NCBI GenBank assembly: GCA_964016885.1
Contig: OZ024743.1
Coordinates: forward strand, 335,854,001-335,918,000
Length of the DNA: 64,000 nucleotides
From: Eledone cirrhosa
Lineage: Eukaryota
Direction: 5' to 3'
In this document: in pieces, positions 48,344 to 54,025 of the stretch
How positions within the stretch are numbered: the stretch's first letter is position 1
Layout of the letters: every line of letters starts with the position of its first letter
The notes under the pieces: model-generated
Database searches by the model: none
What the model was told of the DNA's origin: nothing
What the model saw: the letters and a program-made list of their open reading frames with translations, nothing else
Made by a program: the position numbers and the translations under genes

Positions 48344-49108
48344 AATAATAATAATAATAATAATAATAATAATAATAATAATAATAATAATGTCCGTTTA
48401 CAATAGTTTCGCTACTCCATATAATATTTCTGAATCAGATGACTATATATCATAATTGATCGGGTTCAGTTGAAAATAATTAACATATTTATATACATAT
48501 ATATATATATATATATATATATAGCGGCGATGAATTAGTTTTGCGAGGTTTTTTATATGAAATCGTGTGTCGAAACAGATATTGTTATATTTGGGGAGGG
48601 TCATATTAGCGTAATATTGCCAGAATTAATAACAGAACACACTCACTGTTTGGTTGGTTTTCGCTTCTCGCTGTCTTTTATATATATATATCTGCGATCT
48701 AACTTACTCGGTCCTCAATGTTGCCATTGACTGACCGGCGGTCAAAAATAATACAGATACAATATAGACAAACACATATATATATAGTTTACATAAATCT
48801 TTCGTTGCACATCTGCAACATCGTCAGTGGTGTTATATTCATTGTTCCTCCTGTTGTGTTGTATGTCTACGCCATTTTTTTTGTTTTTTTTGTTCAGTCT
48901 GTCTATATATTTATTTATTTATTTGCTTGTTTGTTTATCTTATTTTATTTTGTCTTCTTTGCGCATGCGTTTGCGTGTGTGTATAGTGTTATGTGTGATG
49001 TGTGACTAGTGTGTATAGTGTTGTGTCTGCTGGGTGACTAGTGTGTGTTTATGTGCTTGTGTATGTGTTTATTTATCTTATTTTATTTAATTTAATTTAC
49101 TTATTTAT

Positions 49109-51265
49109 TTATACTTCTCTTAGGTCAGTGTTGTTTGTTTGGGTGTTGTTGTTGTTCCACTCATTCTTTCTGTTTAGCTTTGGTCTTCTAATTTCTATTT
49201 CACTGGCCTCTCTGATTTGCCTATCTGCTGGGTCATTCCTATGTTTAGATATTATTCTAATTTCTATGTTGTCTATGTTACCGTCATGATGTTGTCTAGC
49301 ATGTTCGTATAGTACTGACCCGTTTTTTCGTCCTTTTAGTTCCCCCCAGTGTTGGTCTATCCTTTCACCTATGCTACGAGCTGTCTCACCTATGTATGTT
49401 GTTGTCGTGTTTCTGCAAGTACCCTCTGTACATCTTATGCTATAGACTACGTTTCTAGTTTTACAGTTTATCCGGGGGTTCACCTTACATATGATACATT
49501 TCCTATTGGTACAGTGGGTTTTCTTAAAAGGGTAGGTTTTGCTGATCAGGGATTTTATGGTGGTTCCTGGCTTTTCTACCACCTTTATTTTTAAGTGGGT
49601 CTTTCTCAGGGCCTTTCTACACTGGTTGGCTAATTTCCCTCCAGGGGTGGCGTCCACAAACATGACACTCTGATATCTCTGGTTGTCGTACCATGATGTG
49701 GCCTTCCCTATTTTATGTCTAGCCCTATCTAAGCTATTCCATGATTTGCTCCTGTATAGTGGGCAAATTCCTTTCATGTCCAGTTCTATGAGGGTCTTAT
49801 ACTTTTCCATGGCTCCTTCGTATACTCTGACTCTGTCTCTTTGGTTGTAGCCAGAGAACTGCATGCGGTTGATGAAGTGTTGGATGTGTCCTTCCATTTC
49901 TGTTGGGTCGCACATGCTGGACACATTCTTCATCACTCGTACCAAATCTGCGATCAGAATATTAAACTTAGCACTACTGGACATTGCTGAGTTTTTGAGT
50001 ATCAGGTATTTGGAGGCCATGGGTTTAGCATAGTGTGAGTGGAGAATTTGGGCTCTCTCGTCTATAGTGTTGATCCAGAGTTCTGTGTCTAATACAGGTA
50101 GTCTATTGTTAGGGTGTTTGGAAGGGAAGTCTATAGTTACAGTTATACTCTGGTGTATGGAATTAGCTATCTGCTGGATGCTTTCCATCGTGCTACGTTC
50201 TAAATCAAACTTGTTAGTGCTCTCTAGTGGGGGTGTTCTTATAACTATATTGATATCGTCTACATAACGAGAGTACATGATGAGGTCTATGGAGCTTTCA
50301 TTAAGGAGATCTTTAAGTCTCCTTTCCCACCATACCATGAAAAGGTTGGCAACATCGCCAGCTATGCTGACGCCGATGGCTGCTCCCTCATTTTGGGTGT
50401 AGATTTTCTCATTGAACTTAAATATGTGGCCCTTTAGGGTAGTTTTGATACTAGCCCCTATTGCATGTGCGACCATTTTTCTTACCTGATCAGTGTTTTG
50501 GGGGGTCCGTATAGCTTTGGTCCACCCAATCCACCTTCCTATGGGAGTCTTTTTAGCCATTGAGGTTATGGTGGGGGGTCTACCTCTTATAGGTCTACTA
50601 GGGCAGAAACATCTAAGGTCATGGCTGTCTAGGTAGTCAGTGTCGTAGGTAAGTCTAAGTAGGAGGCCCAGTTCGTCTGTGTCGACGTCGCAGAACTCCA
50701 CCTCACTCTCAATGATCATCTCCACACATCTTTTCACAGCAAAATCAATGTTAATGGATGGGTACAGTGACACCACATCCATGCTGCCTATTATGCAGTT
50801 GGATAGGCTCCTGTTTTTGTTGCACTCACTGATTCTGCTGAGGAGGTCCTCTGTACTTTCACATACATCTGGGGACATCTTGATTATGGGGCGTATAACC
50901 ATTGAGAGGAAGTAGGAGATCCTGTAGTTGCTAGCTATATTAGCTCCGCATACAGGTCTTGTTGGTGGTCCTATTGTCGGGTCGTCGACAGTCTTGTGGT
51001 CTTTGCGGAGCCCATACAAGGGTGGTATGCCATTGTTAGACGCCTGGAAGTTGTTGGCAGTGCGTCTGCTTGGTTTTAGGATGTCAGTCCACATCATCAT
51101 GTGAGCGTTGAGGATTTTTTCTCTCCCATCGTGTGTTAGTTGTGCAACTTCGCTCGTGTTGGTGATGTGGGGTTGCATTGCCTCGATGTAGTTCGGCATG
51201 CTATCTATTGACATCCTACCAGACTTATCTGTGGGTAAGTCTGGTAGGATGTCAATAGATAGCAT
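49109..51265 (-). CDS. Penelope-like reverse transcriptase / GIY-YIG endonuclease, 5'-truncated
   Basis: TDKSG, LYGLRKDHK, RPV, MDVVSLYPS, GAAIG, RYVDD, Cys-rich linker, VVY..YIGET; no internal stops. Confidence 0.88.
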   Translation of the reverse strand: MLSIDILPDLPTDKSGRMSIDSMPNYIEAMQPHITNTSEVAQLTHDGREKILNAHMMMWTDILKPSRRTANNFQASNNGIPPLYGLRKDHKTVDDPTIGPPTRPVCGANIASNYRISYFLSMVIRPIIKMSPDVCESTEDLLSRISECNKNRSLSNCIIGSMDVVSLYPSINIDFAVKRCVEMIIESEVEFCDVDTDELGLLLRLTYDTDYLDSHDLRCFCPSRPIRGRPPTITSMAKKTPIGRWIGWTKAIRTPQNTDQVRKMVAHAIGASIKTTLKGHIFKFNEKIYTQNEGAAIGVSIAGDVANLFMVWWERRLKDLLNESSIDLIMYSRYVDDINIVIRTPPLESTNKFDLERSTMESIQQIANSIHQSITVTIDFPSKHPNNRLPVLDTELWINTIDERAQILHSHYAKPMASKYLILKNSAMSSSAKFNILIADLVRVMKNVSSMCDPTEMEGHIQHFINRMQFSGYNQRDRVRVYEGAMEKYKTLIELDMKGICPLYRSKSWNSLDRARHKIGKATSWYDNQRYQSVMFVDATPGGKLANQCRKALRKTHLKIKVVEKPGTTIKSLISKTYPFKKTHCTNRKCIICKVNPRINCKTRNVVYSIRCTEGTCRNTTTTYIGETARSIGERIDQHWGELKGRKNGSVLYEHARQHHDGNIDNIEIRIISKHRNDPADRQIREASEIEIRRPKLNRKNEWNNNNTQTNNTDLREV

Positions 51266-53354: not shown

Positions 53355-54025
53355 ATAAATAAGTAAATTAAATTAAATAAAATAAGATAAATAAACACAT
53401 ACACAAGCACATAAACACACACTAGTCACCCAGCAGACACAACACTATACACACTAGTCACACATCACACATAACACTATACACACACGCAAACGCATGC
53501 GCAAAGAAGACAAAATAAAATAAGATAAACAAACAAGCAAATAAATAAATAAATATATAGACAGACTGAACAAAAAAAACAAAAAAAATGGCGTAGACAT
53601 ACAACACAACAGGAGGAACAATGAATATAACACCACTGACGATGTTGCAGATGTGCAACGAAAGATTTATGTAAACTATATATATATGTGTTTGTCTATA
53701 TTGTATCTGTATTATTTTTGACCGCCGGTCAGTCAATGGCAACATTGAGGACCGAGTAAGTTAGATCGCAGATATATATATATAAAAGACAGCGAGAAGC
53801 GAAAACCAACCAAACAGTGAGTGTGTTCTGTTATTAATTCTGGCAATATTACGCTAATATGACCCTCCCCAAATATAACAATATATATATATAAATATAT
53901 ATATATATATATTTATATATATATATATATATATATATATATATATATGTGTGTGTGTGTGTGTGTGTGTGTGTGTGTGTGTGTGTGTGTGTGAGAAAAA
54001 CCACAGACCCTCCATCTCAACTCTA

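What the first reader, a model, noticed from the sequence alone, without database searches (positions are those of the whole stretch)
48579..53884. Perfect 5.3-kb Penelope palindrome: two head-to-head open RT/GIY-YIG frames, each started by the other's antisense
Seen: no arm differences detected by eye; turn-around at the PTDKSG codons with an 8-nt spacer; the ATG of each 718-aa ORF comes from the opposite arm; the arms run about 200 bp past the apparent PLE end, through short (TA)n runs and other sequence. Inference: a very recent fold-back insertion from an active family and a candidate driver for the small hairpin elements. Perfect identity is also what a fold-back chimeric read or gene conversion would give.
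Basis: partly seen in the sequence, partly recalled or inferred. Interest (0 to 1): 0.75.

Follow-up and report, generated by a model that had tools for sequence, protein, structure and literature searches.

The report
Head-to-head Penelope insertion, truncated arms
This perfect 5.3-kb mirror image is two shortened copies of a young, very common Penelope-type jumping gene joined head to head inside a TA repeat, a known layout that most of its sister copies share, and it was likely written in one insertion event from two staggered start points rather than being an active driver element.

Summary
The palindrome is in the sequence as described: 2,649-bp arms, no mismatch, 8-nt spacer. It belongs to a young Neptune/Nematis-type Penelope-like (PLE) family (1,663 exact hits of a mid-ORF 28-mer, both alleles). 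The parent unit is 4,137 bp with a 1,210-aa ORF carrying an Asn-rich insert. Both window frames lack the first ~501 aa, the 'antisense ATG' is incidental, and none of eight small hairpins in the window matches this family, so 'driver' is not supported. The '200 bp overrun' is the element's own end plus the next unit's first codons. Head-to-head pairs in (TA)n are the family norm: 48 of 50 resolved pairs join one short-tail and one long-tail end, as here, and arms are not nested (16 of 32), which favours priming from both sides of the target over simple fold-back. Near-symmetric joints are rare (1 of 38 consecutive copies). Different flanks and family-typical ends argue against a chimeric read, but no independent read crosses the centre. 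The layout is published; this scan reached similar readings for other palindromes in this genome.

The parts
48488..48520 (.). Left (TA)n target microsatellite
   Evidence: sequence; family ends abut (TA)n
48521..51237 (-). Left arm: 5'-truncated PLE copy from parent position 1505 through the unit end and 84 nt into the next unit (long-tail end)
   Evidence: 99.2% to a real tandem copy, L036
48521..48578 (-). 58-nt 'tail' present on the left arm only (nt 27-84 of the next unit's ORF)
49109..51265 (-). 718-aa open frame; native part = parent aa 502-1210 (RT, CX4CxxC linker, GIY-YIG-type EN); first residues are antisense of the other arm
   Evidence: tblastn 100% over 709 aa; weak RVT_1
51228..51237 (.). 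Joint: 8-nt spacer (parent sequence, read on the left arm) plus a 2-nt TA microhomology shared by both arms
51236..53884 (+). Right arm: 5'-truncated PLE copy from parent position 1515 through the unit end and 26 nt into the next unit (short-tail end)
51198..53354 (+). 718-aa open frame; ATG from the antisense of the left arm, native Met at 51249; lacks the N-terminal ~501 aa
53355..53858 (+). 3' UTR / pseudo-LTR region, which is the 5' leader of the next ORF in tandem copies (mirror 48605-49108)
53636..53663 (+). Hammerhead-like core (CUGANGA, stem II, GAAA); stem I not evident, no Rfam hit; mirror 48800-48827
53702..53778 (+). Predicted stable RNA hairpin in the pseudo-LTR (z = -4.1)
53859..53884 (+). 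First 26 nt of the next unit's ORF, pointing outward (mirror starts at 48604)
53885..53991 (.). Right (TA)n target microsatellite followed by (TG)n

Best explanation
The 5.3-kb palindrome is a very young head-to-head pair of 5'-truncated copies of a high-copy Penelope-like retrotransposon sitting in a (TA)n repeat, likely written in one insertion by reverse transcription primed from both cut target strands at two staggered start sites on one template and then joined through a 2-nt microhomology. Shown: family membership, truncation, one long-tail and one short-tail end, shared rare variants, (TA)n on both sides. Inferred: that the endonuclease cut both strands, that one strand primed at +84 and the other at +26 of the next ORF, that both cDNAs stopped near parent position 1505-1515, and that one cDNA end annealed to the other at TA. 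The copy is predicted to be a dead end: no N-terminal domain, and its own pseudo-LTRs face outward.
For: Parent unit and 1,210-aa ORF. 1,660 + 3 exact hits of a mid-ORF 28-mer; among the first 100 hits, adjacent pairs are 16 head-to-head, 8 tandem, 0 tail-to-tail. 37 of 61 element clusters in 60 consecutive C1 loci hold both orientations. One short (about +26) and one long (+45 to +85) end in 30 of 31 resolved consecutive pairs and 18 of 19 selected pairs, window included (binomial p 1.5e-8 and 4e-5 against 0.5). In 16 of 32 simple two-arm pairs the short-tail arm reaches further 5', so each arm holds sequence the other lacks, which copying one cDNA onto itself cannot give; the near-symmetric L066 is of that kind. 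40 of 61 joints overlap by 1-10 nt. Arms share a template: in 8 of 15 consecutive loci with >=300 nt overlap no arm from another locus is as close as the partner, and 6 of 15 share variants private in the 96-locus sample. The window's arms share all 7 substitutions against the reference copy; two of the rare ones also mark a sibling head-to-head insertion on C2. In vitro, an anole Poseidon protein cuts and extends both strands, starts at two internal sites that bound the tail, and is predicted to dimerise (PMC11167929, main text read).
Against: For this copy alone the long-tail arm contains the short-tail arm and carries the spacer, so cis fold-back fits it equally well. Two other tight joints (L035, L056; <=12 nt apart) exceed permutation in the selected set (p 0.011), although not in the consecutive set (0 of 38) or pooled (p 0.09), so a small fold-back class may exist. 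In 7 of 15 loci the partner arm is not the strictly closest. One RNA versus two RNAs from one source locus cannot be told apart. PMC11167929 saw no difference in start site between the two strands. No target-site duplication can be read in (TA)n and no empty site was found. No independent read confirms the centre joint.
Confidence: 0.6

Rival explanations
1. Real insertion made by cis fold-back: one cDNA primed at +84 stopped at parent position 1505, snapped back on a 2-bp TA stem with an 8-nt loop, copied itself outward and was joined to the far target end at +26.
For: Nested arms, spacer on the long-tail arm, zero mismatches and three variants (U1668A, U3030A, U3675C) not found together elsewhere are all expected. 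L035 has the same geometry. Self-priming was proposed for PLE junction palindromes (PMC3846280, Discussion read).
Against: Fails for 16 of 32 sister pairs and for near-symmetric L066; needs a second rule to stop at +26, the same end used by single and non-nested copies; a 2-bp stem is a weak primer; 1 near-symmetric joint in 38 consecutive ones matches the permutation mean of 1.3. The three rare ORF variants are all synonymous third positions, which suits inheritance from a source lineage better than fresh RT errors.
Confidence: 0.28
2. Assembly or read artefact: a fold-back chimeric long read, or two real arms polished to identity.
For: Perfect identity; no contig or read of the runs laid crosses the centre; one sister copy abuts an assembly gap (L120); the flanks are unrelated repeats, so their pre-insertion adjacency could not be checked.
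Against: A fold-back chimera would mirror the flank; here the arms stop at two different family-typical ends (+84, +26) in two different (TA)n tracts followed by different sequence. Zero arm differences are ordinary in young sisters (L035 0/2351, L087 0/2351, L140 0/1730). The rare variants separate both arms from the family bulk, so they were not collapsed onto it.
Confidence: 0.06
3. The palindrome is a functional unit: each arm supplies a start codon for the other's frame and the 718-aa proteins mobilise the small hairpin elements; or gene conversion keeps the arms identical.
For: Both frames are open and keep the RT and endonuclease motifs; the minus frame keeps LPTDKSG.
Against: 501 N-terminal residues are missing, including a block conserved in 9 of 9 homologues and the region predicted to form the dimer in the anole element (PMC11167929, Fig. 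2 legend); full-length frames with upstream pseudo-LTRs exist elsewhere; openness follows from youth; none of 8 window hairpins matches the family; older pairs do diverge (L119 18/1644, L123 33/2348). Read-through RNA would pair with itself over 2.6 kb (inference).
Confidence: 0.04

Closest known systems
EN+ Penelope-like elements, Neptune/Nematis type (PMC8557442, passages seen)
   Same: RT with DKG-type motif followed by CX2-5CxxC linker and C-terminal GIY-YIG EN with CCHH; partial tandems, inverted 5'-truncated copy, tail often at one end only; (TA)n targets
   Different: Tail here is about 20-60 nt with three long endpoints (+51, +69, +84) against the 30-40 bp described; the inverted copy is as long as the direct one; Neptune versus Nematis not resolved (no tree with reference elements)
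Adineta vaga Penelope families Pen2-Pen4 (PMC3846280, passages and Discussion seen)
   Same: Head-to-head inverted structures with palindromes at the junction, optional tail at one inverted pLTR, in-frame Asn-rich inserts
   Different: Low copy there, over 1,600 hits here; the insert here is about 150 aa and lies N-terminal to the RT, not between RT and thumb or EN; they infer self-priming, which the non-nested arms here disfavour as the general route
Poseidon of Anolis carolinensis, PAc (PMC11167929, main text read)
   Same: Ends lie inside the start of the next ORF at discrete sites that bound a tail; AT-rich targets; tandem arrays
   Different: Different clade; start sites at +26 and +51/69/84 rather than about +111-118; here ends share TA with the target, while PAc starts were not homologous to the cut DNA; the hammerhead lies upstream of the ORF and is unconfirmed
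Drosophila virilis Penelope (PMC2377424, passages seen)
   Same: Partial tandem flanked by large inverted repeats of variable size is the commonest form; promoter in the pseudo-LTR upstream of a full ORF
   Different: The window copy has no full ORF and no pseudo-LTR upstream of either frame
L1 twin priming (recalled; only search listings seen)
   Same: Second target strand primes a second cDNA, giving an inversion joined by microhomology
   Different: In L1 the two parts are non-overlapping pieces of one RNA; here both arms contain the 3' end and overlap

Membership tests
EN+ Penelope-like element | PLE-type RT with DKG motif and catalytic YxDD | tested here: met
   PTDKSG and YVDD conserved in alignment A1; RVT_1 weak, E 1.3e-4, below cut-off
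EN+ Penelope-like element | C-terminal GIY-YIG endonuclease with CCHH motif in the same ORF | tested here: met
   VVY..C....C....YIGET.R...R...H...H in the protein; homologue P0047 passes Pfam GIY-YIG; the query itself has no Pfam GIY-YIG hit
EN+ Penelope-like element | Tandem/partial-tandem units forming pseudo-LTRs, inverted 5'-truncated copy, optional tail | tested here: met
EN+ Penelope-like element | Hammerhead ribozyme in the pseudo-LTR | tested here: inconclusive
   Core and stem II at 53636-53663; no Rfam hit; stem I not evident
Neptune or Nematis clade | CX2-5CxxC motif in the RT-EN linker | tested here: met
   CX4CxxC (CTNRKCIIC), conserved in A1; criterion from PMC8557442
Neptune (as against Nematis) | Placement in an RT tree with reference elements | not tested
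   No named reference elements were returned
Naiad / Chlamys / Hydra clades | N-terminal EN (Naiad, Chlamys) or CxCX5C linker without CCHH (Hydra) | tested here: not met
   EN is C-terminal, linker is CX4CxxC, CCHH present
Autonomous (driver) PLE copy | Full-length ORF behind a pseudo-LTR | tested here: not met
   Frames start at parent aa 502 or later; pseudo-LTRs lie downstream and face outward
Autonomous (driver) PLE copy | Transcription and enzymatic activity | not testable with these tools
   No suitable expression data or assay

The most novel reading that the evidence does not exclude
The strict pairing of one short-tail and one long-tail end (48 of 50), with overlapping, non-nested arms from one template, is the genomic footprint of a PLE dimer that primes both cut strands at two fixed, staggered sites on a single RNA and copies the same stretch twice; perfect palindromes such as this one arise when both enzymes stop at the same RNA end. 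With over a thousand near-identical copies and an Asn-rich insert in an apparently active ORF, the family is a ready test bed for how PLEs make their inverted insertions.
Probability: 0.45. Interest if true: 0.55.

Novelty: new member of a known kind. Interest (0 to 1): 0.27.

Why it matters
The locus itself is a by-product. Its value is as one data point in a large young family whose end-pairing statistics bear on an open question named in PMC8557442 (how PLEs form tandem/inverted insertions) and favour two-ended priming over the self-priming proposed in PMC3846280. If read through, such palindromes would make kilobase double-stranded RNA and could feed silencing of the family (inference, untested). 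It also shows that perfect multi-kb palindromes in this assembly need not be artefacts.

Tried and rejected
Independent read support: 24 runs listed, no RNA holder listed. Four runs laid on the left flank, left arm and centre and four on 51150-51270 (three runs in common): depth is zero past 51239, no joint is listed at the centre, and 2,342 RAD reads continue into parent sequence at 51237. These are short contigs or reduced-representation reads, probably of other individuals (the window allele at 49712 is missing from X1-X3), so this is no evidence either way. Empty-site test through paralogous flanks: both flanks are pieces of unrelated repeats; none of 9 left-piece loci continues into the right piece and none of 9 other right-piece loci holds the left piece. 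Source element for the window's variants: no single copy carries them all; C9 shares only U3030A, four older copies only U1668A. Rfam found only (TA)n noise. Pfam found nothing for the full 1,210-aa protein. Enrichment of near-symmetric joints: not significant in the unbiased or pooled set. Look-up of earlier findings by sequence returned nothing. Five paper searches showed no paper that counts short/long end pairing in PLE inversions; most subscription papers are outside the library and no supplements were opened, so this is not proof of absence. No structure prediction or complex job was run: neither bears on the claim.

Full report
Observation. The window holds a perfect inverted repeat with arms 48579-51227 and 51236-53884 (2,649 nt, no mismatch) around an 8-nt spacer. 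Two 718-aa frames cross the centre, each with its first ATG in the other arm. [quoted passage not shown] The best named homologue is an Octopus vulgaris hypothetical protein at 69% identity, so the host is likely an octopus (inference).

The family. A search of the own genome with the coding arm gave 41 full-length matches at about 99.8% from 40 scored of 2,207 candidates. A mid-ORF 28-mer has 1,660 exact hits with the common base and 3 with the window's base. Tandem copies give the parent unit: 4,137 bp, ORF 1,210 aa, with an Asn-rich insert before the RT. I used one real copy (L036) as coordinate reference, U1 = ORF start. The left arm covers U1505 to the unit end plus 84 nt of the next unit (to 48521, 58 nt beyond the palindrome); the right arm covers U1515 to the end plus 26 nt. 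The '200 bp past the end' is therefore the pseudo-LTR and the first codons of the next ORF, shared by the family up to a few fixed endpoints followed by (TA)n. Both frames lack the first ~501 residues, a region alignable in all 9 homologues chosen from 134 hits. The antisense-derived ATG has a stop three codons before it and a native Met 17 codons after it; nothing suggests design. In D. virilis the promoter lies in the pseudo-LTR upstream of a full ORF (PMC2377424, passages); here both pseudo-LTRs lie downstream and face outward. None of the eight small hairpins in the window, nor the second PLE-like element at 38051-42269, matches this family by blastn or tblastn at E <= 1e-3. The driver idea fails.

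Architecture of sister copies. I fetched 36 stretches around the best hits (biased to long, young copies) and 60 stretches around consecutive pattern hits on C1 between 10 and 146 Mb (one further locus of that range, L066, was already held). Among the first 100 of 1,660 hits, neighbours within 8 kb are 16 head-to-head, 8 tandem, 0 tail-to-tail. In the consecutive set 37 of 61 clusters hold both orientations; 24 hold one, two of which hide a 16-nt inverted tail stub. Where both outer ends could be read, 30 of 31 consecutive and 18 of 19 selected pairs (window included) join one short end (about +26) with one long end (about +45 to +85); 6 + 6 inverted clusters were left out because an end was off the fetched stretch or of neither class, and L088/L089 share a joint and are not independent. 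In simple two-arm pairs the long-tail arm reaches further 5' in 16 and the short-tail arm in 16. Forty of 61 joints overlap by 1-10 nt, the rest are blunt or have up to 190 nt between. Arms of one insertion tend to share a template: in 8 of 15 consecutive loci with at least 300 nt overlap no foreign arm is as close as the partner, in 7 some are; 6 of 15 share variants private in the 96-locus sample. Zero differences are common in young pairs (L035, L087, L140) while older pairs diverge (L119, L123), so identity here reflects youth (0 of 2,649; under about 0.11% at 95%), not upkeep.

The window's own variants. Both arms carry the same 7 substitutions against the reference. Four were counted genome-wide: 6, 3, 9 and 9 exact hits, two of each being the window's arms. 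A head-to-head insertion on C2 shares two of them and differs from the window at two substitutions over about 1,600 nt; no copy examined has all. The three rare ORF variants are synonymous third positions. This points to a minor source lineage plus a few private changes present on both arms.

Mechanism. Cis fold-back requires the second arm to lie within the first; half the sisters break this, including near-symmetric L066, whose loop belongs to the short-tail arm while the other arm has the longer tail. Priming from both cut strands at two staggered sites explains the end pairing, the overlap and the lack of nesting, and agrees with the anole element, which cuts and extends both strands, starts at two internal sites bounding the tail and is predicted to be a dimer (PMC11167929, abstract, main text and first methods read); that paper saw no strand difference in start site. 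For the window copy alone, fold-back and two-ended priming predict the same letters. Near-symmetric joints (<=60 nt) are 1 of 38 in the consecutive set (permutation mean 1.3), 3 of 23 in the selected set without the window (p 0.04), 4 of 61 pooled (p 0.13): a small fold-back class is possible, not shown. I put 0.6 on two-ended priming for this copy and 0.28 on fold-back.

Artefact. A fold-back chimeric read would mirror flanking DNA or end at random. Here the arms end at two different family endpoints in two different (TA)n tracts with unrelated repeats beyond. No independent read could be found across the centre, and the empty site could not be inferred, so a small doubt remains (0.06).

Known and new. 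Inverted 5'-truncated copies, a tail often at one end only, and (TA)n targets are described (PMC8557442, passages); head-to-head structures with junction palindromes and Asn-rich inserts are described in rotifers, with self-priming as the proposed cause (PMC3846280, passages and Discussion). Five searches listed no paper that quantifies end pairing; supplements were not opened and may hold such data. After forming my reading I found that this scan has reached similar two-primer readings for other palindromes in the same genome (unreviewed notes, not counted as evidence). Verdict: a real, ordinary product of a young PLE family; new member of a known kind; interest 0.27, carried by the family-level end-pairing result rather than by this locus.

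Noticed in passing
L036:1848-5480 (parent ORF), aa about 247-408: About 150-aa Asn/His-rich insert in an otherwise intact 1,210-aa ORF, absent or much shorter in 9 homologues; recalls the N-rich inserts described in rotifer Penelopes, here N-terminal to the RT and in a high-copy young family.
   Followed up: partly
window 38051-42269: A second, unrelated PLE-like element with 465-bp inverted ends (99%) and a 528-aa minus-strand frame (40245-41831) whose linker reads CxCX5C, the Hydra-clade motif of PMC8557442; it holds a 133-158-bp tandem block and a 180-bp repeat. No DNA or protein match to the family studied here.
   Followed up: partly
window 4526-4937, 8279-8395, 20849-21018, 27945-28126, 32274-32487, 34203-34439, 35177-35601, 37548-37943: Eight small hairpins, most next to (TA)n; two carry hammerhead-like cores (near 35262/35501 and 37657). 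None matches this family, so they likely come from other families.
   Followed up: partly
L031-L036, L083, L134: Head-to-tail arrays of two to three or more full 4.13-kb units within single insertions, consistent with multimeric or circular templates; not tested.
   Followed up: no
L084, L121, L086, L098, L105, L108, L113, L122: Inverted second arms only 16-95 nt long, all of the long-tail class, several stopping near the short start site, as if the downstream primer ran into the upstream one on the same RNA.
   Followed up: partly
L107: Compound insertion: outer arms turn at the same parent position (2030) and enclose a second inverted pair turning at position 3157.
   Followed up: no
L088 and L089 (C1, 10 kb apart): Two insertions with the same joint (4070/2696), probably a local duplication, yet with different right ends.
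   Followed up: no
window 10944-13886, 43373-46242, 56475-59604, 61892-63824; 21839-23662; 15432-18435: Several endonuclease-RT non-LTR retrotransposon copies (the first two about 95% alike, inverted), an RTE-like frame, and Helitron-like helicase fragments; names are recalled from the translations, not from a family scan.
   Followed up: no
window 54252-56068: Tandem repeat of about 510-570 bp with variable (CT)n just right of the insertion.
   Followed up: no
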